Shown here piece by piece: positions 1 through 10,337 of a stretch of 64,000 nucleotides of DNA (positions are counted from its first letter, which is position 1; every line of letters starts with the position of its first letter). The stretch spans positions 1 to 64,000 of the forward strand of contig CAVQGX010000038.1 in assembly GCA_963712115.1 (NCBI GenBank), written 5' to 3'. Source of the DNA: an uncultured delta proteobacterium. Lineage in GTDB: Bacteria > Desulfobacterota > Syntrophobacteria > BM002. The position numbers and the translations under genes are program-made. The notes beneath the pieces are model-generated. The model was given only the letters and a program-made list of their open reading frames with translations. It was not told the DNA's origin and ran no database searches.

Positions 1-273
1 GAAACAATAGAGCTTGCCCACTGTGGCCACAAAGCTGATGCCGGAGTCCACAGGTTCGCGATCAACCACGTCCTTACAGATAGCTGCCACAGAAACCTCC
101 AGCTTATCAGTCTCCTGCGCCTGCATTGCAGGTTCTTGCATCTCGCCGGTGGGTTCTTTGGTCTGCATGGCAGGTTCTTGTGCCTGACCGCTAGACTGCT
201 GAGCCTGACAGATAGCGTGCAGGCCCATAAACATGGTTACCAGAACCAAAATGGGAATGATTAGCCTCTTCAT
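1..273 (-). CDS. Exported protein, DUF2914-like; 5' part only, runs off window edge
   Basis: Manual translation MKRLIIPILVLVTMFMGLHAICQAQQ...VAAICKDVVDREPVDSGISFVATVGKLYCF; signal peptide, QEPAM repeats; ggag RBS upstream of ATG at 273. Confidence 0.7.
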   Translation of the reverse strand, partial: MKRLIIPILVLVTMFMGLHAICQAQQSSGQAQEPAMQTKEPTGEMQEPAMQAQETDKLEVSVAAICKDVVDREPVDSGISFVATVGKLYCF

Positions 274-314
274 GTCGGTTATCTCCTTGCTTTGGAAGTT
301 TACCTTTTCATGAC

Positions 315-343
315 TAGCCCGGATGTTTGATGAATCCGGGCTA
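315..343. mobile_element. Minimal (internally deleted) copy of the TAGCCCGGAT-TIR MITE family
   Basis: tagcccggat...atccgggcta, same termini as 30455-30696 and 36390-36607. Confidence 0.6.
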
Positions 344-397
344 CTATTCGAGGCAAAATAGCACATGTTCATACAATATAGCAAATCAGTGGGCACC

Positions 398-655
398 AGC
401 GCTTCGCTCGAAACGAGCTTCGGCGTCATCAGGTCACTACGCTGCGCTGTCATTGGGCATGGAGCAGAGGGTAGATTGTAGATTGCGGATTTGGGAATTA
501 GAAAATTAGAGAATTAGTTAATTAGTAGCTTCGCCAGGTTATGGGTGATGGGTCGTTCAAGTCGTTGAAACCGTTGAAATCGTTCACACGGCTTACCGCT
601 TACCTTTACCGTTTACCGTTTACCAAAATAAAAAGCTAGATCGAAGCTCCTCCGT
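398..655 (+). repeat. Mosaic short-tandem-repeat array
   Basis: gtcatcaggtcactacgctgcgctgtcatt module, gattgcg, aattagag, gttgaaatc and ttaccgt runs. Confidence 0.85.
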
Positions 656-698
656 GTTCCTAGAGAAATGGATAACCACTGACTATCTTACTTATCAT

Positions 699-727
699 TT
701 GACAAAAACTTCTATATCTAATAGTTT
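699..727 (+). promoter_or_regulatory. Sigma-70-type promoter upstream of the hxlB operon
   Basis: TTGACA (699-704), 17 nt spacer, TAGTTT (722-727). Confidence 0.6.
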
Positions 728-737
728 TTAAGATAAT

Positions 738-950
738 CTCCCATTGCGGAGGTCAAACCGCTTGGATCCACTGGGGTTGGACTGAGACGGGAAGGCTTCT
801 CCCACTTAAAAGAACTTTTGAGTAAGCCCTCTCGACTTGGCCGAGAGGGCTTTAGTTCTTCTGGCTTTACTGCCTTTCACGAATCTATCCGCCTTTTCCC
901 TTCCGGTCTCAGCGTGGCGCCCATTTGACGGTGAAATGAATATGTGGGAA
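738..950 (+). ncRNA. Candidate rod-like structured RNA / 5' leader (unassigned)
   Basis: Nested complementary segments: 752-757/924-929, 782-795/899-912, 810-816/854-860, 824-834/842-852. Confidence 0.4.
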
Positions 951-1031
951 TTGGGCTCCAAGGTTGCTTGGGAGCTATCACAGTCAATTGAGACCCTGGT
1001 TTTTCTTGCTTATTATTGATGAGAGGTTCCA

Positions 1032-1634
1032 ATGAGGCGAAAACTGAAACCGACAGCCCACCCAAAGGTGGCAGGGCTGTCTATTCACCAAAAGGTCGAG
1101 GCCATCCTGGAAGAAAACCACCGTTTGCTGCAGGGCCTCAGCGACAAGACGGTGGAGGATTTTATCCACAGGATTCTGGGCGCCAGAGCCATTTTTTTCT
1201 CCGCTCAGGGAAGATCGGGTTTTATTCTTCGCTGTTTTTGCATGCGGCTGATGCATCTTGGCTACCAAGTCTATTTTTGCGGCGAAACCATCACACCCGC
1301 CATTGAACCGGAAGATATGCTCATCGTTCTCAGCGGCTCCGGAGAAACCCCCTCGACCCTCGAGGCGGTAAAGGTCGCCAAGAGACAGAAGGCTTTCACC
1401 TTCGGCGTCGTGGGAAACATAGAATCCCGGATAGCCTCGCTAGTGGACAGATATATCCATCTTCCCGGCACTACCAAGCTCCGCCGTGATTCTGAACCCT
1501 ACTCATTGCAAATGGCCGGCTCCCTGTTTGAACAAGCTGCTTTCATTTTCCTGGAGGCCATCATTTTGACCCTACACCAGGAAGGACTGGAAAGAGTCGA
1601 CAGTTTGTCTCCACGACACGCTGTGATCGAATAA
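1032..1634 (+). CDS. hxlB: 6-phospho-3-hexuloisomerase (SIS domain, RuMP pathway)
   Basis: GRSG...MRLMHLG, GETITPAI, SGSGET, GSLFEQ, C-terminal RHAVIE. Confidence 0.9.
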   Translation: MRRKLKPTAHPKVAGLSIHQKVEAILEENHRLLQGLSDKTVEDFIHRILGARAIFFSAQGRSGFILRCFCMRLMHLGYQVYFCGETITPAIEPEDMLIVLSGSGETPSTLEAVKVAKRQKAFTFGVVGNIESRIASLVDRYIHLPGTTKLRRDSEPYSLQMAGSLFEQAAFIFLEAIILTLHQEGLERVDSLSPRHAVIE

Positions 1635-1647
1635 GGAGGGGTATAGA

Positions 1648-2934
1648 ATGAAACCAATCCTGCAGTTGGCTCTGGATTTTGTGGACCTGAAACGGGCCTT
1701 AAAAAACGCGCAGGCCGGGATAGCGGGAGGAGTTGACTGGCTTGAGGCTGGGACCCCTCTTATCAAAAGTGAGGGACTCAAAGCTGTCCGGGAGTTGCGC
1801 GGGCTGTTTCCGCAGACCACCATCGTGGCAGATATGAAAATCATGGATACCGGGCGGGTTGAGGTTGAAGCCGCTGCCAAGGCCGGTGCCAATATCGTTG
1901 ATGTGCTCGGCGCAGCCAGCGATGCGACCATCCGGGAGTGCATCCAGGCTGGCAAGAATTATGGCGCCAAGATCGTGGTGGATATGATCGCAGTAGACGA
2001 TGTGCTCTCCAGGGCACAGTTCGTGGAGGAACTTGGGGCCGACTTTGTGACCATCCACTGCGCTGTTGACGAGCAGATGGAAGGAAAGGACCCTTTCGCC
2101 ATTTTAAGACAGGTCAGCAAGATATTGACCATCCCGGTGGGCGTGGCCGGCGGCATCAACTCTGAGACCGCTGCAGAGGCGGTGAAAGCCGGCGCTGCTA
2201 TTGTCATTGTCGGTGGTGCCATCAGCAAGGCCCTGGACCCGGAACAGGCGGCTCGTGAGATCCGTCAAGGACTCGACACCGGTGTGAGCATCAGCACCAC
2301 CCTGTTTAAGAGAAAGGGCGAGGCTGAGATCAGGGAAATTCTTGAACAGGTGTCTGCGGCCAATCTTTCCGATGCACTGCACCGCGGCGGAGTCCTTCAG
2401 GGAATTCGGCCACTTTTCCCTGGCATCCGCATGGTGGGACGAGCACTCACCGTTAGGACCTATCCAGGAGATTGGGCCAAACCTGTCCAGGCCATTGACC
2501 TGGCCGAACCAGGAGACGTGATCGTGATAGACGCCGGGGGTGTGGGTCCTGCCCTTTGGGGAGAGTTGGCTACCCATTCCGCTGTGCAAAAGGGGTTGGC
2601 CGGGGTAGTCATCGATGGTGCCCTGCGAGATAGTGATGAGATCACAGCCCTCAAATTTCCAGCCTTTAGCAGGCTGGTCATGCCTAATGCCGGCGAGCCC
2701 AAAGGTTTTGGGGAAATTGGGGTGCCAGTGACAGTTGGCAATATGCGGGTGGAGTCTGGAGACTGGTTATTGGGTGATGGCGATGGTGTGGTGGTGTTGC
2801 CCCGAGCCATGTCAGTTGAGTACGCGAACCGTGGGATGGATGTGCTGGAGAAAGAAAATCGCATCCGTGAGGAGATCAAAGAGGGGAGCACTTTGAGTAA
2901 AGTAACCGAATTGCTGCGCTGGGAAAAGAAGTAG
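1648..2934 (+). CDS. hxlA: 3-hexulose-6-phosphate synthase fused to a C-terminal RraA/HMG-aldolase-like domain
   Basis: LQLALD, EAGTPLIKSEG, ADMKIMDTG, VAGGI; C-terminal WGELA...DGALRD and GDGDGVVV. Confidence 0.9.
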   Translation: MKPILQLALDFVDLKRALKNAQAGIAGGVDWLEAGTPLIKSEGLKAVRELRGLFPQTTIVADMKIMDTGRVEVEAAAKAGANIVDVLGAASDATIRECIQAGKNYGAKIVVDMIAVDDVLSRAQFVEELGADFVTIHCAVDEQMEGKDPFAILRQVSKILTIPVGVAGGINSETAAEAVKAGAAIVIVGGAISKALDPEQAAREIRQGLDTGVSISTTLFKRKGEAEIREILEQVSAANLSDALHRGGVLQGIRPLFPGIRMVGRALTVRTYPGDWAKPVQAIDLAEPGDVIVIDAGGVGPALWGELATHSAVQKGLAGVVIDGALRDSDEITALKFPAFSRLVMPNAGEPKGFGEIGVPVTVGNMRVESGDWLLGDGDGVVVLPRAMSVEYANRGMDVLEKENRIREEIKEGSTLSKVTELLRWEKK

Positions 2935-2949
2935 ACGAGTATTTGAGAC

Positions 2950-3885
2950 ATGGAAATTGTGGTCGTAGGCCCCGGAGCTATTGGTTGTCTATTCGCCGCG
3001 TACCTGGCCAGGGCTGGCAGTGCGGTCTGGCTGCTTGATCATCGGCCCGAACGGGCCAAGCAGATCGGGGAAAGAGGAATTACGGTCGAGTCAGAGAGAG
3101 GTGACTTCCATGCCCAAATGAAAGTGACGGCGAAACCAGCCGAGATCAGATCGGCAGATTTGCTGATTCTGTGCGTCAAGGCCAATAACACCGCAGATGC
3201 TGCGGCTAGGCTGCAGGGCACAATTGCTCCCCAGGGTCACCTCTTAACCCTGCAAAATGGCCTGGGCAATGTAGAGAGACTTGGCGAGTTTTTTGACAGT
3301 TCTCGGATTCTTGCCGGAGCAACGTCCCATGGTGCCACCTTGCTGGATGTGGGACGTGTCCGCCATGCTGGCTACGGAGAGATATGGATAGGAGAGACGG
3401 GTGGGACCAGTTCGAGCCTGGCGGGCAGGGAGAAGCTCCAAAATCTGGCGGCCACCTTGAACAGGGCTGAATTACAAGCTCAAGTGGTTGATGACATTGA
3501 AGCGGTTTTGTGGCGAAAGTTGGTGGTGAATGTTGGCATTAACGCTCTTACCGCTATTCTGGGCGTGCCAAATGGCGAGCTGCTGAGAATCCACGACTGC
3601 GCGAGTTTGATGAATGGAGCGGTGGCAGAAGCTGTCGAGGTGGCGCGCCATTGCGGCATCAATCTGAACCCGACGGAAGAGATTGAAAGGGTCAGAGCCG
3701 TGTGCCGCTCCACCACCAGCAATATCTCTTCCATGCTCCAGGATGTAAGGCGGAAAAAGAAGACAGAAATAGACCAACTCAACGGTGTCGTGGTCAAAAT
3801 GGCCGCCATTTATGGAACGACGGCCCCGGTTAACGAAGTACTTACCGCCCTAGTCCGGAGCCTCGAGGCAGGATACAGTGGTTGA
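2950..3885 (+). CDS. panE: 2-dehydropantoate 2-reductase (ketopantoate reductase)
   Basis: GPGAIG, LQNGLG, WRKLVVNVGINAL, SSMLQD, TEIDQLNG. Confidence 0.9.
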   Translation: MEIVVVGPGAIGCLFAAYLARAGSAVWLLDHRPERAKQIGERGITVESERGDFHAQMKVTAKPAEIRSADLLILCVKANNTADAAARLQGTIAPQGHLLTLQNGLGNVERLGEFFDSSRILAGATSHGATLLDVGRVRHAGYGEIWIGETGGTSSSLAGREKLQNLAATLNRAELQAQVVDDIEAVLWRKLVVNVGINALTAILGVPNGELLRIHDCASLMNGAVAEAVEVARHCGINLNPTEEIERVRAVCRSTTSNISSMLQDVRRKKKTEIDQLNGVVVKMAAIYGTTAPVNEVLTALVRSLEAGYSG

Positions 3886-3906
3886 GCAAACGGGATTCAT
3901 GAATTT

Positions 3907-4581
3907 TTAGAAACGGAATGATATCCCAGTCAAGAAATGATGGGTATCTAGAGGGGTCTCCACTTTCAGCCTGGTACGGGGCTCAAACCCAAGAATCCAT
4001 TCCTCGGTTTCATCTTTATAATTTATTTTATAGTGGGTGTAGCGATACTCCCCGAATATGCCTAAGTTTCTGTGGAACTGCCACAGGAGACCCGCCCGAA
4101 AGTCCCAGCCGTTCTCCAAACTCCAATCGGAAACTCTCTCCGAAACTGCCGGTCGAAAATCTACCTTCATATCATAGTAGATTAGGCTCGGACCCCCAGC
4201 CAGGTAAGGCTGAAGTTTGCCGTGAGGATAATCTTCACTAGTTAGTAAGGGCCATCGGAACATAAACAAGAGTGACAAGGGAACTATGGAGAAGTCCACT
4301 TTTTCGGAATCTGCTTGGAAATAAGACAAGTCCCACGCAAGGCCAAGATAGTATAAAGAATCCGGCCAGTAGGCAATCCGACCTCCAAAGGTAAATGAGG
4401 TGTCGTAGCTTGTTTTTTCAGAAGCGCTTTCCCTAGGAAAGTAACTGTCAACCTTTACCTCAGAGCCATCAGTAATTGCTGCCCCAAGGTAAAAGTCCGT
4501 AGACAATTCGGCTCGTATAAGAGTGGGGGTTACACCTATAAGAGCAAACACAGTAACTGACAAGAACAGTTTATAACTCAA
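3907..4581 (-). CDS. Outer membrane beta-barrel protein
   Basis: Signal peptide, alternating aromatic strands, PYLAGG, C-terminal ISFRF. Confidence 0.75.
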   Translation of the reverse strand: MSYKLFLSVTVFALIGVTPTLIRAELSTDFYLGAAITDGSEVKVDSYFPRESASEKTSYDTSFTFGGRIAYWPDSLYYLGLAWDLSYFQADSEKVDFSIVPLSLLFMFRWPLLTSEDYPHGKLQPYLAGGPSLIYYDMKVDFRPAVSERVSDWSLENGWDFRAGLLWQFHRNLGIFGEYRYTHYKINYKDETEEWILGFEPRTRLKVETPLDTHHFLTGISFRF

Positions 4582-5009
4582 CTGTTACCCTCCGTTGGTT
4601 GGTTTCCCCTCTATGGCAAGTGACCATCTGCCTGGATTTAAGTATGTTGCGGGCTTGCTCGTAACTCCTGTGTTGCTTTGTCATTATGGCAATCCACATG
4701 CCACGAGCGGTCTTTCTCTTCCATTCAAGTTTCGGTTCGTCATCTCTGGTCAATCTGCAACCAGTTTGCAAGTATAATAATGCTGTAAACACAAGGTTTT
4801 ATGTTGGATCCGGTAGAAACAAGTCTTAGTTGAATAATGTTCAGACTCTTTTTATGAATTACGATACAAGATTGAGGAATAGAAAGGTGAAGGGTGCAAT
4901 AAATATTGACAGGATTTTCGGTAATTCTGAGATAACTAATTAAATAAGATGTTTCCAGCATAGCAAGGAATTTTGACAGTGCAAGAAAAGTTGCGTTGTC
5001 ATGTGCCTG

Positions 5010-5140
5010 CGGTGTCATTTGGCTACGCCGTCATTAGGTCACTACGCTTCGCTGTCATTGGGCAGAGGGTTGGAGGTTGGAGGAGCGCTACGCTCGAGGT
5101 TGGAGGCAGATCTCTGCGGATTGCGGATTTGGGATGTGGG
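5010..5140 (+). repeat. Mosaic repeat array
   Basis: gtcattaggtcactacgcttcgctgtcatt, ggttgga and gcggatt runs. Confidence 0.8.
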
Positions 5141-5241
5141 GCCGTCCTCAGTTTTACTTGACAGGCTCGTAGGATCCGTGCCAGAGTCTGCCAACTTTTC
5201 CTCACTGGATAAACAGCTTTCATTAACTACGGGAGTAGATC

Positions 5242-6300
5242 GTGTCAGAGGATATCTATCGGGAGTTGGCTCAGCACTTGGACGACCTGCCAGGCGGCTT
5301 TCCCTCCACGGAGAGCGGCGTAGAACTGCGCATATTGCGGCGGCTTTTCACCCCGGAAGAAGCGGAACTGGCTTTACACCTGACCCTGTTTCCTGAAGAG
5401 TCTGAAATCATCGCCGGCCGGGCCGGGATTGACCAGGAGGAGGCTGCTCAACGTCTGGACAAGATGGCAAAAAAGGGACTTATCTACAGCATTGAACGAG
5501 ACGGCAAGCTGCCGAAATACAGAGCCAGCCAGTACATGGTTGGCATCTGGGAATTCCATGTCAATAGTCTCGACCTGGACCTTATCCGGGACACCAACGA
5601 ATACTTTCCCGCCCTCTTTCGTGAGGCCTGGAAGGTTCCCCAGTTACGTACCATCCCCGTGGGCCAAAGTCTTACCCCCCAGCACGAGGTGCTGCCCTAT
5701 GAGCAGGCAGAGGAACTGGTGCGGGCGCAGGACAAGATTGCGGTGGCTCCCTGCATATGTCGGCGGGAACACACCATGGTGGAAAAAGGTTGCGATCGAC
5801 CCAAGGAGACCTGCCTGGTATTTGGGTCGGGGGCGGACTACTATGTGAGAAATGGGTTGGGCCGATCGATCGACCTCGATGAAACCCTAAAAATCCTTAA
5901 CCTGGCTGAAGAAGCCGGATTAGTGCTGCAGCCGAGCAACTCCAAAAAGGCGGCATTTATCTGCCTTTGTTGCGGCTGCTGTTGTCAGGTCCTCAAAAAC
6001 ATCAAACTTCAACCCAAACCCGCCAGCTTCGTCTGTTCACCATTTGTGGCTGCCGTCAACCTCGACACCTGTGAAGGTTGTGGCGACTGTGTAGACCGCT
6101 GCCAGATGGAAGCATTAGAGTTGGGTGAGAACACGGTAGCCCTGGATCTGGACCGCTGCATTGGCTGCGGCCTTTGCGTTACCACCTGCCCTACTGAGTC
6201 TCTTTCTATGGTGCGCAAGCCCGAGTCAGAACAGCCAGAGGTACCGAAAAACATGATTGAGGCTTCCTTGAAGCTGGGCAAGGCTCGAGAGAAGATCTGA
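5242..6300 (+). CDS. 4Fe-4S dicluster iron-sulfur protein with N-terminal HTH-like region
   Basis: CICR, CLCCGCCC, CEGCGDCVDRC, CIGCGLCVTTCP. Confidence 0.8.
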   Translation: MSEDIYRELAQHLDDLPGGFPSTESGVELRILRRLFTPEEAELALHLTLFPEESEIIAGRAGIDQEEAAQRLDKMAKKGLIYSIERDGKLPKYRASQYMVGIWEFHVNSLDLDLIRDTNEYFPALFREAWKVPQLRTIPVGQSLTPQHEVLPYEQAEELVRAQDKIAVAPCICRREHTMVEKGCDRPKETCLVFGSGADYYVRNGLGRSIDLDETLKILNLAEEAGLVLQPSNSKKAAFICLCCGCCCQVLKNIKLQPKPASFVCSPFVAAVNLDTCEGCGDCVDRCQMEALELGENTVALDLDRCIGCGLCVTTCPTESLSMVRKPESEQPEVPKNMIEASLKLGKAREKI

Positions 6301-6307
6301 GGGATAA

Positions 6308-6575
6308 AAGGCAGCGGGCAGCTAGCGCTTCGCGTCACTTGCCTTCGGCGTCATTAGGTCAATACGCTTCGCTGTCATTTGTTGTAAGAGGTAGGGGTCA
6401 GAGGTCGGAGAGTCACTAGGCACTAAGGACTAGGCACTGGGCACCAAAGCTCAGAGTCATTACGCTTCGCTGTCATTGGGTAAGAGCAAAGAGCATAGAG
6501 CAAAGGGCATAGAGTGAAGGATTTCGAATTTACCCTATGCCCCATGCCCTATGCCCCATGCCCAGTTCTACTGGC
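6308..6575 (+). repeat. Mosaic repeat array overlapping the larA 3' end
   Basis: gtcatt module x2, tcagagg, cactagg, agcatag and inverted ctatgcc runs. Confidence 0.85.
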
Positions 6576-7871
6576 AACAGGCAACGTCAGGAGCGCTTGA
6601 GGCACAATAAGCACGTCCAGTTCGTAGCGACCTATTTTCGATGCAGCCATACGGAAGGCTTCGTCCATGTCTGCAGCCGGGGTCATATGCAGCTGGCGCA
6701 CCACATCAGGTGTCACAGTTCCTGCGATGATGACCTGGGTCTTTTCCAGTACCTTGGCCATAATAAAAGCCCGTTGTCCCCCTGGAGGATAGCCGGTGCT
6801 ACGCAGTTCAGCTAGTAGAGAGTCCATATTGACGGCACCTTTCATCGTTTCCAGAAAAGACCGCTCACCGAAACCCTGACCGGCCCCTTCCTCCGTAGGG
6901 GCCGGGACAATAAAGACGCCTCCTTCCTTGACCACGCAAAGGGGAGCGAAAAAGAGCTGACTGGCGGCCCGGCTGGCCTGATAGATGTTTGTATCTTTTG
7001 GAAAGCCGACTCCGGCCACGGCCACGTCGTATTGTTGAGGAATAGGGACTTCGTATAGCTGTCTTGCAACCTTGACCAACTTCTCAAAGGTCGCTTCCGG
7101 TTCGCCAGCAAGAATTGCAACTGCCCGTTTGTGGTTATCCTGAACCACGTTGAGGATGAAGCTCAAGCCTGCACGGCGGGCAGCTTCTGTGATCGCTTGG
7201 TGGAAGGGATTGTCCTCGATCTTGCCCAGCCGTGTCCCGGGATTATCAACCATCTGGGGACCGTGTGTACTGGCGATCATTTGCTCACCTCCAGCACCAA
7301 TGGCCGCAGTCTTTCGGCCCCCTGAATAGCCGGCATACTGGTGCGGCTCGACAATCCCGGTAGCAATGAGCAAATCAGCTTCGCAAGCAATCTTATTTAC
7401 TGAAAGTGGGATACCCTTCTCAGTGGAACCCAAGTCTTTGAGTCCGGTCCGGTTTAACGGCTCGTGGTCCACCACCCTGTAGCGGTCGACGACTGCCTGC
7501 CCGAGCTTGACAACCTTCTCCTTCTGGGTGCTTGGCCTGTGCATGCCGATACCGCAGAGTAGGGTGATATCCTCATCACGCACCCCAGCCGTTTGTAACT
7601 CGGCCAAAAGGGCGGGTACCAGCAGATGATCTGGGCTATCCCGGGTGATATCGGTGAAAACAATGCAGACGGTATGGCCCGGTTTAGCCATTTTGCTCAA
7701 CGGTGGGGAATTGATGGGATTGGCTAATGCTTCAGCGATGGCCTCCTCCAAGTCGGCCAGCGGCTCCATCAACCGAGATTTTACGTAGGTGCCACGCATT
7801 TTTGCTGGCAACTCAAAATCCAGATAGGATTTGCCGAAAGGGATGCGGTACAGGGTTGTATTATTCTTCAT
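6549..7871 (-). CDS. larA: Nickel-pincer-dependent lactate racemase (LarA) family protein
   Basis: DITR, GMHR, EPHQYAGYSGGRK, NIYQASRA, C-terminal TLP. Confidence 0.8.
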   Translation of the reverse strand: MKNNTTLYRIPFGKSYLDFELPAKMRGTYVKSRLMEPLADLEEAIAEALANPINSPPLSKMAKPGHTVCIVFTDITRDSPDHLLVPALLAELQTAGVRDEDITLLCGIGMHRPSTQKEKVVKLGQAVVDRYRVVDHEPLNRTGLKDLGSTEKGIPLSVNKIACEADLLIATGIVEPHQYAGYSGGRKTAAIGAGGEQMIASTHGPQMVDNPGTRLGKIEDNPFHQAITEAARRAGLSFILNVVQDNHKRAVAILAGEPEATFEKLVKVARQLYEVPIPQQYDVAVAGVGFPKDTNIYQASRAASQLFFAPLCVVKEGGVFIVPAPTEEGAGQGFGERSFLETMKGAVNMDSLLAELRSTGYPPGGQRAFIMAKVLEKTQVIIAGTVTPDVVRQLHMTPAADMDEAFRMAASKIGRYELDVLIVPQALLTLPVASRTGHGA

Positions 7872-7914: not shown

Positions 7915-8078
7915 GGTTGATTAGTTGATTCGTCAAATGGTCAAATCGTTGAAGTCGTCCAGTCCAGAGGTCAGAGGCCAGATGTCAGAAAACAGAGAGC
8001 AATTTACCGTTTACTGTTTACCGCTCACTGTTTACCGTATACCGCTTACCAAAATAAAAAATAAAAAAGCGGAGCCGA
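7915..8078 (+). repeat. Mosaic repeat array overlapping the 3' end of the PKD gene
   Basis: attagttg, gtcaaat, cagagg and ttaccgt runs; aaaaaagcggagccga. Confidence 0.8.
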
Positions 8079-10337
8079 GGGTGCGGCAGTGGCAATGAAG
8101 CACACGCCGCCGCCGCCACCCCCTCGACTGCTCGAGACGGTTACATAACTATCTTTGGTCTCTGTATCCGAACCTCCAGGATTCGTGACCCTAAGGCTTA
8201 CCCTGTAGCTGCCAGCGGCAGTGTAGGTATGTGTAGGATTTTGGTTAGTGCTGGAGGTAGCATCGCCGAAATCCCATAACCATTCGGTGGCAAAACCAGT
8301 GGATTGATCGGCGAAGGCTACAGTAAGAGGCGCTTCTCCGCTAGTGCGATTGGCAGTGAAATTAGCCGTCGGAACAGGGTATTCTACTTTAATATAGTCT
8401 GTCTTGGTTTCTGTGTCCGAACCTTCAGGACCTGTGACCGTAAGGCTTACCGTATAGTTTCCAGGAACAATGTAGGTATGTGTAGGATTTTGCTCAGTGC
8501 TGGTGGTAGCATCGCCAAAATTCCACTGCCAGGAGGTGACCGCCGCCGCAGTTTGGTCAGTGAAATTGACTTGCAGTGGAAGCATTCCACTAACAACATC
8601 GGCAGTAAAGTCAGCTTGGATATATTTCAGCTGTGCCCACCAAGTCCCCCAGCGGTCATCGTCAGGGTCAGGTCCTACATCGGTCGCGGCATATTGCTGA
8701 ATGGTCCAGAAAGTGAGGTCGTCATCCGGGTCCACCACCGTAGCGCTGTAATCTCCCCAACGAACCTGACCGGAGCCGAAATCCTTGACGTAGCTGTCCT
8801 CGCCCCCCTTGATGACGGTGATAGCATCCATGCTACCTGCTGGGTCACTGCTCTTGCGCCCGGTCACCACACCCTCCACGAATCTGGTGGAATCCGAGCG
8901 GGAAAAACCCAAGGCCACGTCATTTATGGAGTTCACAGCAATGGAAGGGAAGAAGTGATGTACACCCGAGCCGCCGTCAAGGACGCCAGACTGGACGATG
9001 GGGTCACCGGTGGTGTTCAACAGGTCAGGGTCGAGTTCGTACCAAAAAACCGCTGTCCGGTCGGCAGCCCCGCCGGCTGGTAAGCCGCCGCTGTGTGTAG
9101 TCCAGAGGCGGCCGTCTCGCAACACCGCGTTCAACAGACGGGGGTCATTGGTGCTCACCCTGGTTGCTGTTCCCAGCTGGGAAGCATCTATCTGAGATAA
9201 GTTAAAGTTGTTAGAAACCAAGAAGAATCCGGTTCCCGGAAAAAAGCCTGCAGCGTCGGGAACCACCGACCAGGAGGGCGAGTCTGCCGGCCCGGTGATC
9301 ATCGAAAGTCTCAGCAAAACCACGCCGCCGAAAATCAAGAATCCATTATCCGCGATATAGAGATTCTCTTCTGCCGCATCCAAGGTAGCGGCCGGTCTCA
9401 AGGTGAAGCCATTTGAACCACCGGCCGTATCAAAGCCGGTATCAAAAGGAGTGAAGACCAAGGGGTCTTGCCCGAGGCTGCTCTTTTCAATGACCCACAT
9501 TTTGACCCCGGATAAACTGTCGTCAAATACGGTGAACATGTTATTGGTGATGGCCACCCACTTCGAGTTGAATCCGATGTCAGGAAAATCAGCCCAGTCT
9601 GCGTCGGTTGGGTCCGCATCAATAGCATAAAATGTCCAGTTGCCGGTGGGGTCTGAGTTGTCACTTACAGCAAACCACACCGCAGAGTCTGCTGATCTCG
9701 AATCCGCATCCACCGTGGCCAGCCAGCGGTTGGCAAGGGAGTCATAGACCAGTCGAGGGTCGAAGGGGTTTCCACTCAGCCCGGTGCCGGGAGATGTCCA
9801 GAAGGTGTCCAGGGTCACAGTGCTGAGGTTGTTGCCCGACTTGTCCTGAATGCGGACCTGGGTGTTGAGCATGGTCATCAGGTGGTTTGGTCCGGCGGCC
9901 CCCATGGTATCGGGAGGAATCGCGGCGTTGTTGTCCGGGAGGGCTTGGAAGTCATCCTCCACTGGGATAAGGGGTTCACCTCCCCTGCCGACAAATTCCT
10001 GCACTTGGGGTGCCAACGGTCTCAAGGTCCCTTCGGCCACACCGAGGGACCGCGATCCTGGTGCTGGCATAAGAGGAATAACCCGCGGTTGTTTAGCGTA
10101 GATGGCTCTTGACTGCTGGAAGGTCAAAAGCTCATCCCAGGTGACAACCCCAGCGGGACTGATTTTTACCTGCTCCTGGGCCCCCAGTGGCTGCGCAGCC
10201 ATGACCGCTAAACACACAAAAAACTGGAGAAGGCTGCGCTCGACCAGGCGGTGACTATACCGTGTGGTGACGAAACAAAGGGTGGCTTGCAGCGATGAAG
10301 CTGCGATGGAGAGGTAAGATATAAGCTTAGCGAACAC
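8046..10337 (-). CDS. Secreted surface protein with two PKD domains and a truncated CFI-box-CTERM
   Basis: IPPDTMGAAGPNH, RWGDYS; PKD motifs WNFGD...NPTHTY and WDFGD...NPTHTY; GGGGGVCFIATAA; true start uncertain. Confidence 0.8.
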   Translation of the reverse strand: MFAKLISYLSIAASSLQATLCFVTTRYSHRLVERSLLQFFVCLAVMAAQPLGAQEQVKISPAGVVTWDELLTFQQSRAIYAKQPRVIPLMPAPGSRSLGVAEGTLRPLAPQVQEFVGRGGEPLIPVEDDFQALPDNNAAIPPDTMGAAGPNHLMTMLNTQVRIQDKSGNNLSTVTLDTFWTSPGTGLSGNPFDPRLVYDSLANRWLATVDADSRSADSAVWFAVSDNSDPTGNWTFYAIDADPTDADWADFPDIGFNSKWVAITNNMFTVFDDSLSGVKMWVIEKSSLGQDPLVFTPFDTGFDTAGGSNGFTLRPAATLDAAEENLYIADNGFLIFGGVVLLRLSMITGPADSPSWSVVPDAAGFFPGTGFFLVSNNFNLSQIDASQLGTATRVSTNDPRLLNAVLRDGRLWTTHSGGLPAGGAADRTAVFWYELDPDLLNTTGDPIVQSGVLDGGSGVHHFFPSIAVNSINDVALGFSRSDSTRFVEGVVTGRKSSDPAGSMDAITVIKGGEDSYVKDFGSGQVRWGDYSATVVDPDDDLTFWTIQQYAATDVGPDPDDDRWGTWWAQLKYIQADFTADVVSGMLPLQVNFTDQTAAAVTSWQWNFGDATTSTEQNPTHTYIVPGNYTVSLTVTGPEGSDTETKTDYIKVEYPVPTANFTANRTSGEAPLTVAFADQSTGFATEWLWDFGDATSSTNQNPTHTYTAAGSYRVSLRVTNPGGSDTETKDSYVTVSSSRGGGGGGVCFIATAAPSAPLFYFLFW

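What the first reader, a model, noticed from the sequence alone, without database searches (positions are those of the whole stretch)
1032..3885. hxlB - HPS::RraA-aldolase - panE operon: possible folate-independent ketopantoate synthesis from RuMP formaldehyde
Seen: three genes with 13 and 15 nt gaps; the RraA-like domain has E-X20-R-D. Known: reverse RuMP (PHI + HPS) yields ribulose-5-P plus formaldehyde; RraA-like proteins include class II 2-oxoacid aldolases; ketopantoate is the aldol product of formaldehyde and 2-ketoisovalerate, normally made by PanB from methylene-THF; PanE reduces ketopantoate. The HPS-RraA fusion itself is known, mostly from archaea. Inference: the fusion may channel released formaldehyde onto ketoisovalerate (or pyruvate) for PanE to reduce, coupling pentose supply and formaldehyde detoxification to CoA precursor synthesis.
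Basis: partly seen in the sequence, partly recalled or inferred. Interest (0 to 1): 0.75.

Follow-up and report, generated by a model that had tools for sequence, protein, structure and literature searches.

The report
Likely PanB-free ketopantoate synthesis operon
Three adjacent genes appear to make the vitamin B5 precursor pantoate without the usual folate-dependent enzyme PanB, by releasing formaldehyde from a sugar phosphate and adding it to ketoisovalerate; this could fill a gap in CoA biosynthesis in methanogens and many anaerobic bacteria.

Summary
hxlB (1032-1634), an HPS::RraA-like fusion (1648-2934) and panE (2950-3885) lie on one strand with 13- and 15-nt gaps.

1. Anticorrelation with panB. 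The window's genome (94.4% complete) has panC, panD and this single panE, but no panB and no PanG. In even samples of three phyla (Thermodesulfobacteriota 301 genomes, the Methanosarcina phylum 251, Planctomycetota 201), 263 of 266 fusion-bearing genomes lack panB, while 425 of 487 fusion-less genomes have it. All 24 Thermodesulfobacteriota and 66 Planctomycetota fusion genomes tested carry panC.

2. Linkage. panE follows the fusion in only 8 of the 80 nearest loci. It recurs, with 30-44% identical PanEs, in Armatimonadota, Ca. Zipacnadia and two archaeal lineages. A sister clade carries a non-homologous PanG-type (DUF2520) reductase beside hxlB instead.

The RraA-like domain keeps the Arg-Asp pair that aligns to R123-D124 of HMG/CHA aldolase.

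The fusion is known as "HPS-MenG". HPS activity was measured for it in Methanospirillum, and the second domain's function was stated to be unknown. I found no paper linking it to pantoate.

Most likely (about 0.68), PHI, the fusion and PanE replace PanB. No enzymology exists.

The parts
988..1016 (+). sigma-70-like promoter candidate (TTGAGA-17-TATTAT) just upstream of hxlB
   Evidence: 10 of 12 matches. Promoter-like sites in the region (3) are no more frequent than in shuffles (mean 2.4), so this is only a candidate.
1032..1634 (+). hxlB, 6-phospho-3-hexuloisomerase (PHI), SIS domain, 200 aa
   Evidence: TIGR03127, 175.9 bits (cut-off 160). PF01380 SIS; a homologue lies upstream of the fusion on the same strand in 74 of 80 related loci; a homologue lies downstream of the fusion in 15 loci, most of them labelled Planctomycetota.
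1648..2934 (+). HPS::RraA-like fusion gene, 428 aa (NF005442 family; called 'HPS-MenG' in the literature)
   Evidence: NF005442, 584.4 bits over residues 2-428 (cut-off 593). AlphaFold2 model with pLDDT 92.7 and pTM 0.79; full-length relatives in 24 of 301, 171 of 251 and 70 of 201 genomes of three phyla.
1648..2271 (+). 3-hexulose-6-phosphate synthase domain (residues 1-208), taken here as the formaldehyde-releasing half
   Evidence: TIGR03128, 221.4 bits (cut-off 200). TM-score 0.95 and 0.94 to the solved HPS structures 3f4w and 3ajx. D10, E33, D62, K64, H137 and D141 are invariant in 38 fusions; the M. hungatei orthologue has measured HPS activity.
2359..2796 (+). RraA-like class II (metal-dependent) 2-oxoacid aldolase domain (residues 238-383), proposed ketopantoate-forming aldolase
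   Evidence: PF03737, 156 bits; best solved relatives are 3k4i (98 bits) and HMG/CHA aldolase 3noj (70 bits); R327-D328 align to 3noj R123-D124. TM-score 0.87 and 0.81. R327 and D328 are invariant.
2950..3885 (+). panE, 2-dehydropantoate 2-reductase, 311 aa; the only PanE-family gene in this genome
   Evidence: TIGR00745, 302 bits (cut-off 141); no second PanE in the genome; no DUF2520/PanG in the genome. RNA-library contigs bridge the fusion-panE junction in runs from 3 studies.

Best explanation
The three genes form an operon that makes pantoate without PanB and without a folate one-carbon donor. The proposed steps are:
1. HxlB (PHI) isomerises fructose-6-P to 3-hexulose-6-P.
2. The HPS domain of the fusion cleaves 3-hexulose-6-P to ribulose-5-P and formaldehyde.
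3. The fused RraA-like, metal-dependent class II aldolase domain binds 2-ketoisovalerate through its 2-oxo-acid group, enolises it and adds it to the formaldehyde. The product is ketopantoate, the chemistry of the old orphan 'ketopantoaldolase' (recalled as EC 4.1.2.12).
4. PanE reduces ketopantoate to pantoate, which feeds PanC.

Fusing the two domains would keep free formaldehyde low. This parallels the Fae-HPS fusion of methanogens.

What is shown and what is inferred:
- Shown here: gene content, domain families, conserved catalytic residues, the phyletic pattern and the gene neighbourhoods.
- Shown in print for an orthologue: HPS activity of the fusion.
- Inferred: the direction of the HPS reaction, the aldol step and its substrate, and channelling between the domains.
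For: 1. A pathway hole. The window's genome (94.4% complete) has panC, panD and one panE, the gene in this operon. It has no panB and no PanG/DUF2520.

2. Complementary distribution with panB in three phyla, each an even sample:
- Thermodesulfobacteriota, 301 genomes. Of the 24 full-length fusion genomes plus 1 fragment, 0 of 25 have panB. Of the 276 without the fusion, 259 have it.
- The Methanosarcina phylum, 251 genomes. 1 of 171 fusion genomes has panB, against 48 of 80 without the fusion.
- Planctomycetota, 201 genomes. 2 of 70 fusion genomes have panB, one of them only a partial 140-bit match, against 118 of 131 without the fusion.
- Genomes picked because they carry the fusion: panB in 5 of 50, 0 of 5 and 2 of 50. 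Four records labelled chromosome lack it.

3. The pattern belongs to the fusion, not to its parts. The 12 Thermodesulfobacteriota genomes with matches to the HPS part only, and those with stand-alone RraA-like genes, all have panB.

4. Fusion genomes still need pantoate. panC is present in 24 of 24 Thermodesulfobacteriota fusion genomes and in 66 of 66 Planctomycetota ones. PanE is present in 24 of 24.

5. Neighbourhoods.
- panE lies directly downstream in the window and in 8 of 80 near loci, which form one clade.
- It also lies downstream in 3 Armatimonadota loci, 1 Ca. Zipacnadia locus, 1 Nitrososphaerota locus and 1 Nezhaarchaeales locus. Those PanEs are only 30-44% identical to the window's, and all score 231-272 bits on TIGR00745.
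- A non-homologous DUF2520/PanG-type reductase is divergently placed beside hxlB in 12 to 14 of 80 loci of the sister clade. The family assignment rests on a passage in PMC4572677.
- PHI is linked to the fusion in two gene orders, in 74 of 80 loci and in 15 of 77 loci.

6. Catalytic competence. R327-D328 align to R123-D124 of HMG/CHA aldolase and are invariant. The HPS residues are invariant. Both folds match solved enzymes.

7. This genome has a split transketolase and a transaldolase-family gene. It therefore does not need PHI and HPS to make pentoses.

8. Kono et al. 2017 (PMC5241800, passages read). The M. hungatei fusion has HPS activity of 0.21 U/mg, about 30-fold below Fae-HPS, and its MenG-like domain is described as of unknown function. 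A low rate would suit a vitamin-level flux, but that is my inference.

9. RNA-library contigs from 3 studies bridge the gene junctions.
Against: - No enzyme assay, complementation or labelling exists for the aldol step.
- I know of no RraA-like enzyme shown to use formaldehyde or ketoisovalerate (recall, plus literature searches that found nothing).
- Exceptions to the pattern. Genomes with both the fusion and panB: G584, G668, G607 (partial match), G622, and 5 of 50, three of which sit in one small clade that also has the PanG-like neighbour.
- 62 of 487 fusion-less genomes lack panB too, and at least 15 of them have panC. Either assembly gaps or a further route must exist.
- In methanogens and Archaeoglobales the fusion has no pantothenate gene or PHI next to it, in 0 of 80 loci.
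- Related genomes are not independent. Within each phylum the number of separate gain or loss events is much smaller than the genome counts, and I could not count events because the handles carry no taxonomy.
- The genome is a 70-contig assembly with 6% contamination.
- The RNA contigs come from libraries that can hold DNA, and a contig spanning two genes does not prove a single transcript.
Confidence: 0.68

Rival explanations
1. The fusion is a reverse-RuMP pentose module with built-in formaldehyde disposal. PHI and HPS make ribulose-5-P from fructose-6-P. The RraA-like domain merely scavenges the toxic formaldehyde onto pyruvate, giving 4-hydroxy-2-oxobutanoate, or onto another 2-oxoacid. 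Pantoate is made by some other, unidentified enzyme, and the panB pattern reflects shared ancestry and lifestyle.
For: Archaea are reported to make pentoses by the reverse RuMP pathway, and in Fae-HPS the partner domain is thought to capture the formaldehyde (PMC5241800). The closest characterised relatives of the RraA-like domain are pyruvate aldolases (3noj). Archaeal neighbourhoods give no link to pantothenate.
Against: This does not explain why 263 of 266 fusion genomes in three phyla lack panB while keeping panC and panE. It does not explain why two unrelated ketopantoate reductase families have been placed next to the fusion. The window's genome has a transketolase and a transaldolase-family gene. 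Per Kono et al., M. hungatei carries Fae-HPS as well as this fusion, so a second formaldehyde-capturing HPS there needs a separate reason.
Confidence: 0.14
2. The cluster works in the forward direction, as formaldehyde detoxification or assimilation (HPS then PHI). The RraA-like domain is an oxaloacetate decarboxylase or a regulatory module, as the database name 'ribonuclease regulator' suggests. panE is an unrelated neighbour.
For: HPS and PHI are reversible, and the assay in PMC5241800 measured the forward reaction. NCBIfam names the family 'hexulose-6-phosphate synthase/ribonuclease regulator'. panE adjacency is absent in most loci.
Against: The domain scores 64 bits on the RraA equivalog model against a cut-off of 136. 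It keeps the aldolase Arg-Asp pair invariantly. Archaea, where the fusion is commonest, have no RNase E (recalled). The complementarity with panB and the recurrent reductase neighbours are left unexplained.
Confidence: 0.06
3. The fusion is involved in pantoate synthesis but by different chemistry. It might transfer the hydroxymethyl group directly from hexulose-6-P to ketoisovalerate without free formaldehyde, or it might form a different intermediate that PanE reduces.
For: The same comparative evidence as for the best explanation. The high-confidence single-chain model (pTM 0.79) would allow a fixed arrangement of the two domains.
Against: Nothing found here separates this from the best explanation. 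No precedent is known to me (recalled).
Confidence: 0.1

Closest known systems
HPS-MenG (Mhun0647) of Methanospirillum hungatei; NCBIfam NF005442 'bifunctional hexulose-6-phosphate synthase/ribonuclease regulator'
   Same: The architecture is the same over the full length: HPS at the N-terminus and an RraA/MenG-like domain at the C-terminus. The window protein aligns to model positions 3-429 of 430. It is about 50% identical to Methanomicrobiales members.
   Different: The window protein scores 584.4 bits, just under the 593-bit cut-off. It belongs to a bacterial clade in which hxlB is adjacent, and in this subclade panE as well. The archaeal genes have neither neighbour. The published work measured only HPS activity and left the second domain's function open.
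PanB, ketopantoate hydroxymethyltransferase (PF02548)
   Same: The proposed product is the same: ketopantoate, from 2-ketoisovalerate plus a C1 unit. The metal-assisted enolisation of a 2-oxoacid is also the same in outline (PanB chemistry is recalled). The two occupy the same place in the pathway, as shown by the complementary distribution.
   Different: There is no sequence or fold relationship. The proposed C1 donor is formaldehyde released from hexulose-6-P, not 5,10-methylene-tetrahydrofolate.
HMG/CHA aldolase (LigK/ProA type; PDB 3noj) and other RraA-like class II aldolases
   Same: The fold is the same (TM-score 0.81). The Arg-Asp pair is the same: R327-D328 align to R123-D124.
   Different: The score is only 111 bits against the CHA-aldolase equivalog cut-off of 179. 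The domain is fused to HPS. The proposed nucleophile is ketoisovalerate rather than pyruvate, and the proposed electrophile is formaldehyde.
Fae-HPS fusion of methanogens
   Same: HPS is fused to a domain that consumes formaldehyde, so that the aldehyde released from hexulose-6-P is captured at once (PMC5241800).
   Different: The partner domain there is formaldehyde-activating enzyme, with tetrahydromethanopterin as acceptor. Here it is a 2-oxoacid aldolase. NF009833, the Fae-HPS model, matches only the HPS half of this protein.
PanG (DUF2520-type ketopantoate reductase; FTT1388 of Francisella)
   Same: It is another case of non-orthologous replacement in the pantoate branch. A PanG-family gene sits beside hxlB and the fusion in 12 to 14 of 80 loci.
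   Different: It replaces the reductase step, not the C-C bond-forming step. It is absent from the window's genome. The link between DUF2520 and PanG rests on a passage in PMC4572677. The original paper was not held.

Membership tests
6-phospho-3-hexuloisomerase (HxlB/PHI, TIGR03127) | Score above the curated equivalog-domain cut-off, with a SIS fold | tested here: met
   175.9 bits against a cut-off of 160, covering model positions 2-178 of 178. PF01380 SIS domain.
3-hexulose-6-phosphate synthase (HxlA/HPS, TIGR03128) | Score above the curated cut-off, and a fold like solved HPS structures | tested here: met
   221.4 bits against a cut-off of 200. TM-score 0.95 to 3f4w and 0.94 to 3ajx, rmsd 1.4-1.7 A.
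3-hexulose-6-phosphate synthase (HxlA/HPS, TIGR03128) | Catalytic activity (hexulose-6-P = ribulose-5-P + formaldehyde) | not testable with these tools
   Measured only for the M. hungatei orthologue: 0.21 U/mg in the forward assay (PMC5241800).
HPS/RraA-like fusion (NF005442, PRK07028) | Whole-protein score above the equivalog cut-off of 593 bits | tested here: not met
   584.4 bits, which is 9 bits short, although the alignment is end to end (residues 2-428). In one search only 4 of the 24 Thermodesulfobacteriota fusions exceed the cut-off. In one search, 165 of the 171 archaeal ones do. The window protein is a bacterial branch of the same architecture.
RraA-like / class II 2-oxoacid aldolase superfamily (PF03737) | Pfam gathering score, and a fold like solved members | tested here: met
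   156.2 bits against a cut-off of 24.5. TM-score 0.87 to 3k4i and 0.81 to 3noj.
RraA-like / class II 2-oxoacid aldolase superfamily (PF03737) | The Arg-Asp pair of HMG/CHA aldolase (R123, D124). Their roles as enolate-stabilising Arg and metal-ligand Asp are recalled. | tested here: met
   the alignment puts R327-D328 on 3noj R123-D124; both are invariant in 38 fusions.
4-carboxy-4-hydroxy-2-oxoadipate (CHA/HMG) aldolase equivalog (NF006731, TIGR02798) | Score above the equivalog cut-off | tested here: not met
   111.4 bits against 179, and 97.9 bits against 304.5. It is a relative, not a member.
RraA, ribonuclease E regulator (NF006875, TIGR02998) | Score above the equivalog cut-off | tested here: not met
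   64.4 bits against 136, and 31.3 bits against 241.
2-dehydropantoate 2-reductase (PanE/ApbA, TIGR00745) | Score above the curated cut-off, with both ApbA domains present | tested here: met
   302 bits against 141.35. PF02558 and PF08546 both present. This is a subfamily-level model, and substrate specificity was not tested.
PanB / ketopantoate hydroxymethyltransferase (PF02548) | Homology to the PanB family | tested here: not met
   no PanB-family match for any of the three proteins; no match anywhere in the genome. The claim is 'works in place of PanB', not 'is a PanB'.
Ketopantoaldolase (2-dehydropantoate formaldehyde-lyase; EC number recalled as 4.1.2.12) | Formation or cleavage of ketopantoate from formaldehyde and 2-ketoisovalerate | not testable with these tools
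   Inference only. The literature search for this name returned nothing usable.

The most novel reading that the evidence does not exclude
The HPS::RraA-like fusion, together with PHI, is the missing ketopantoate-forming enzyme of Methanosarcinales, Methanomicrobiales, Archaeoglobales, anammox and other Planctomycetota, and many sulfate-reducing and syntrophic Thermodesulfobacteriota, Armatimonadota and Omnitrophota. It would be a pterin-independent route in which a sugar phosphate (hexulose-6-P) is the one-carbon donor for vitamin B5, and it would have displaced PanB repeatedly in anaerobes. Unfused RraA-like aldolases might do the same job in methanogens that lack both the fusion and PanB, such as Methanocaldococcus.
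Probability: 0.6. Interest if true: 0.88.

Novelty: new variant of a known kind. Interest (0 to 1): 0.8.

Why it matters
Pantoate is needed for coenzyme A in organisms that make their own pantothenate. The step that builds its carbon skeleton is known from one enzyme family, PanB. Hundreds of the genomes sampled here keep the rest of the pathway (panC, panE) without PanB. They include methanogens, Brocadiia and Kuenenia, and sulfate reducers.

If the fusion fills that step, three things follow:
- It closes a pathway hole that affects metabolic models and auxotrophy predictions for major anaerobic groups.
- It gives a physiological role to a widespread protein whose second domain is described in print as of unknown function, and whose database name ('ribonuclease regulator') would then be misleading.
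- It adds a folate-independent, formaldehyde-channelling C-C bond-forming enzyme of interest to biocatalysis and synthetic C1 assimilation.

The proposal can be tested directly by complementing a panB mutant and by a three-enzyme assay.

Tried and rejected
- Archaeal neighbourhoods. The 80 methanogen and Archaeoglobales loci show nitroreductase, DUF3821, TraB, TPR, DUF1538, ACT and AMP-binding genes, or pyrB/pyrI, DUF5788 and RecQ next to the fusion. There is no PHI and no pantothenate gene, so they say nothing either way.
- The search for homologous proteins returned only near-identical relatives (86-95% identity) and gave no taxonomic breadth. The 50%-representative search and cluster look-up were used instead.
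- Rfam scan of 1-5400: no riboswitch or other RNA family at E <= 0.1.
- Promoter and terminator scan: counts no higher than in shuffled sequence. Only the 988-1016 site is worth noting.
- The second RraA-like gene of the genome (C3:85001-85495) is a stand-alone 220-aa protein beside an alkaline-phosphatase-like gene and two unnamed ORFs. Nothing marks it as a better candidate.
- A distant group of fusion-like proteins at 25-29% identity (P0173, P0183, P0205, P0207, P0294) lacks R327 and the HPS H-x-x-x-D-x-Q stretch. I left it out of alignment A2 and of all conclusions.
- Literature searches linking ketopantoate or pantoate with RraA, methanogens or an aldolase found nothing relevant. The EC-number search matched only unrelated text.
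- RNA-library contigs are 92-99% alike, so they come from relatives rather than this strain, and the libraries may contain DNA. I take them as consistent with expression and co-transcription, no more.
- I considered complex prediction and the ESM Atlas and did not use them.


Full report
**What is there**

The window is contig C38 of a 4.9-Mb, 70-contig genome that is 94.4% complete with 6% contamination. Its closest relatives are labelled Desulfobacterales, Syntrophobacterales or 'Deltaproteobacteria', all Thermodesulfobacteriota.

Three same-strand ORFs lie at 1032-1634, 1648-2934 and 2950-3885, with 13- and 15-nt gaps. A convergent outer-membrane beta-barrel gene at 3907-4581 follows them.

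- ORF1 is a 6-phospho-3-hexuloisomerase: TIGR03127, 175.9 bits against a cut-off of 160.
- ORF2 is a two-domain protein. Residues 5-207 are a 3-hexulose-6-phosphate synthase (TIGR03128, 221.4 bits against 200). Residues 238-383 are RraA-like (PF03737, 156 bits). The whole protein aligns end to end to NF005442, the 'hexulose-6-phosphate synthase/ribonuclease regulator' fusion model, at 584.4 bits against a cut-off of 593.
- ORF3 is a PanE/ApbA 2-dehydropantoate 2-reductase: TIGR00745, 302 bits against 141.

A GGAGG precedes the fusion's start codon and a GAGG precedes hxlB's. panE has only a weak ribosome-binding match. A 10-of-12 promoter-like site lies at 988-1016. No Rfam family matches 1-5400.

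Contigs from RNA libraries of three studies, 92-99% alike, cover the locus. One 1,955-nt contig spans 1501-3455, across both junctions, and four shorter ones bridge one junction each. This is consistent with co-transcription in close relatives and no more than that.

**The domains look catalytically competent**

The best solved relatives of the RraA-like half are the uncharacterised 3k4i (98 bits) and HMG/CHA aldolase 3noj (70 bits). R327-D328 align to 3noj R123-D124.

In 38 fusion proteins from bacteria and archaea (43-93% identical to the window's), several residues are invariant. In the aldolase half these are R327, D328, D242, G274-D275-W276 and K278. In the HPS half they are D10, E33, D62, K64, H137 and D141.

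An AlphaFold2 model (pLDDT 92.7, pTM 0.79) matches solved HPS structures at TM 0.94-0.95, and matches 3k4i and 3noj at 0.87 and 0.81. The domain fails the curated cut-offs for both CHA aldolase (111 bits against 179) and RraA proper (64 bits against 136). It is therefore a distinct branch of the RraA-like aldolases.

**A pathway hole in this genome**

The genome has panC and panD. It has exactly one PanE-family gene, the one in this cluster. It has no panB and no DUF2520/PanG.

It also has a split transketolase and a transaldolase-family gene. PHI and HPS are therefore not needed here to make pentoses.

**Test 1: anticorrelation with panB**

I searched the same even samples of three phyla for the fusion model and for PF02548.

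| Phylum sample | Genomes | Fusion genomes with panB | Fusion-less genomes with panB |
|---|---|---|---|
| Thermodesulfobacteriota | 301 | 0 of 25 | 259 of 276 |
| The Methanosarcina phylum | 251 | 1 of 171 (G584) | 48 of 80 |
| Planctomycetota | 201 | 2 of 70 (G668; G607, a partial 140-bit match) | 118 of 131 |
| Together | 753 | 3 of 266 | 425 of 487 |

In the Thermodesulfobacteriota sample, the 25 are 24 genomes with a full-length fusion (E < 1e-100, including the window's) and one with a contig-end fragment.

Further details from that sample:
- The window's eight same-class relatives without the fusion all have panB. The other fusion families lie in other classes.
- In family f48, the five genomes of one genus have the fusion and no panB. 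Another genus has a member with panB and no fusion.
- Genomes with matches to the HPS part only (12) or with stand-alone RraA-like genes all have panB. The pattern therefore belongs to the fusion.

Genomes chosen because they carry the fusion gave panB in 5 of 50 (I gave 50 of the 80 loci), 0 of 5 and 2 of 50 (50 of 77 loci). These spanned Planctomycetota, Armatimonadota, Omnitrophota, an Actinomycetes MAG, Altiarchaeota, Thermoplasmata and Nitrososphaerota. Some genomes occur in both a chosen set and a sample. Four of the panB-less records are labelled chromosome.

Fusion genomes still use pantoate. panC is present in 24 of 24 Thermodesulfobacteriota fusion genomes and in 66 of 66 Planctomycetota ones. 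For one search, four genomes with truncated fusion matches were left out to fit the 80-handle limit. PanE is above its cut-off in 24 of 24.

Of the genomes with neither gene, 8 of 17 Thermodesulfobacteriota and 7 of 13 Planctomycetota also lack panC. Of the nine Thermodesulfobacteriota that keep panC, eight are 61-91% complete and one (G146) is 99% complete; completeness was not given for the Planctomycetota.

**Test 2: linkage**

Among the 80 nearest loci (73-93% identical fusions), hxlB lies upstream on the same strand in 74. Five of the six misses have under 700 nt of upstream sequence.

panE lies downstream in only 8 of the 80. Ten loci have under 1 kb downstream and cannot be judged. On a FastTree of the fusion, the window and these eight form one clade with support 96.

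The sister clade carries a different gene instead. It is divergent from hxlB and has the Rossmann-like PF10727 and DUF2520 PF10728 domains. It was found in 12 loci by clustering and in 14 by tblastn. A passage in PMC4572677 equates DUF2520 oxidoreductases with PanG, the alternative ketopantoate reductase of Francisella. I could not read the original paper.

Further afield, panE follows the fusion on the same strand in six more loci:
- two Armatimonadota loci, with gaps of about 58 nt, and a third about 900 nt away;
- one Ca. Zipacnadia locus (85 nt);
- one Nitrososphaerota archaeon (23 nt);
- one Nezhaarchaeales archaeon (24 nt).

Their PanEs are only 30-44% identical to the window's, and all score 231-272 bits on TIGR00745.

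In 15 loci, most of them labelled Planctomycetota, hxlB lies downstream of the fusion, which is the opposite order. In 80 methanogen and Archaeoglobales loci neither PHI nor any pantothenate gene is adjacent.

A ketopantoate reductase has nevertheless been placed next to this gene pair several times, and from two unrelated families.

**What is in print**

Kono et al. 2017 (PMC5241800; passages read) describe the M. hungatei orthologue Mhun0647 as 'HPS-MenG'. They measured HPS activity of 0.21 U/mg, against 6.05 U/mg for Fae-HPS. [quoted passage not shown]

Full-text searches found no paper proposing a role in pantoate synthesis. The term combinations were:
- ketopantoate + RraA;
- hexulose + RraA;
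- KPHMT + methanogens;
- ketopantoate + formaldehyde + aldolase + ketoisovalerate;
- pantoate + methanogens;
- hexulose + demethylmenaquinone methyltransferase;
- HPS-MenG, Mhun0647 or Hps-RraA.

The library lacks most subscription journals, and supplements were closed, so I cannot exclude prior work.

**Reading**

The simplest account of a gene that (i) replaces panB in the phyletic pattern of three phyla, (ii) travels with PHI and repeatedly with a ketopantoate reductase, and (iii) joins a formaldehyde-releasing lyase to a metal-dependent 2-oxoacid aldolase is this: the fusion makes ketopantoate from ketoisovalerate and hexulose-6-P-derived formaldehyde. I put this at about 0.68.

The rivals are:
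- a pentose-and-scavenger module unrelated to pantoate (0.14);
- a forward-direction detoxification or regulator reading (0.06);
- a pantoate role with different chemistry (0.10).

Against the main reading stand several points. There is no biochemistry. A handful of genomes have both genes. 62 genomes have neither. Related genomes are not independent, and I could not count independent events because the handles carry no taxonomy.

**Novelty and verdict**

The fusion and each of its domains belong to known families. The proposed function is a non-orthologous, folate-independent replacement of PanB with a sugar phosphate as C1 source, and it appears to be new. I file it as a new variant of a known kind and score interest at 0.8. 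It would close a pathway hole in methanogens, anammox bacteria and many other anaerobes, and it can be tested directly by panB complementation and a three-enzyme assay.

Noticed in passing
window 6549-7871 (-): A LarA-family nickel-pincer-cofactor racemase gene (Lar_N plus LarA_C). Its best NCBIfam match is the LarAH6 malate racemase family at 360 bits, below the 500-bit cut-off, so the substrate is open.
   Followed up: no
window 5242-6300 (+): A 352-aa protein with a C-terminal 2x[4Fe-4S] ferredoxin domain (residues 270-325) and a Cys-rich N-terminal two-thirds that has no family match.
   Followed up: no
window 8046-10337 (-): A 763-aa ORF with a hydrophobic N-terminal stretch, two similar segments near the C-terminus and a C-terminal Gly run followed by a hydrophobic tail. 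Not scanned against any family library.
   Followed up: no
G000:C3:85001-85495 (-) = L006:1369-2031: A second, stand-alone RraA-like gene (220 aa) in the same genome. Its best match is PRK08245, 'hypothetical protein', at 100 bits. It lies beside an alkaline-phosphatase-like gene. The context gives no clue to its function.
   Followed up: partly
G000:C21:12626-14603 (+): The transketolase is encoded as two adjacent genes, N- and C-terminal halves scoring 469 and 424 bits on TIGR00232. Further transketolase-like pairs lie on C63 and C32.
   Followed up: no
proteins P0173, P0183, P0205, P0207, P0294: A divergent group with the same two-domain length (410-433 aa, 25-29% identity). It has lost the aldolase Arg (T/S-D instead of R-D) and the HPS H-x-x-x-D-x-Q stretch. 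It may be a non-catalytic or re-purposed paralogue of the fusion.
   Followed up: partly
L010:2968-6219 and 22 other loci: In 23 of the 80 Thermodesulfobacteriota loci, hisS and aspS (histidyl- and aspartyl-tRNA synthetase genes) directly follow the fusion on the same strand, in the position panE holds in the window.
   Followed up: partly
L212, L219, L222, L225, L227, L229-L232, L235, L236, L240, L241, L243, L246: In these loci, most of them labelled Planctomycetota, the PHI gene lies downstream of the fusion, the reverse of the Thermodesulfobacteriota order. It is only 26-50% identical to the window's HxlB.
   Followed up: partly
genomes G022, G024, G028 (loci L028, L030, L034): A small clade of Desulfobacterales MAGs carries the fusion and panB together. 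L028 and L030 also have the PanG-like neighbour. This could be redundancy, re-acquisition of panB or bin contamination.
   Followed up: no
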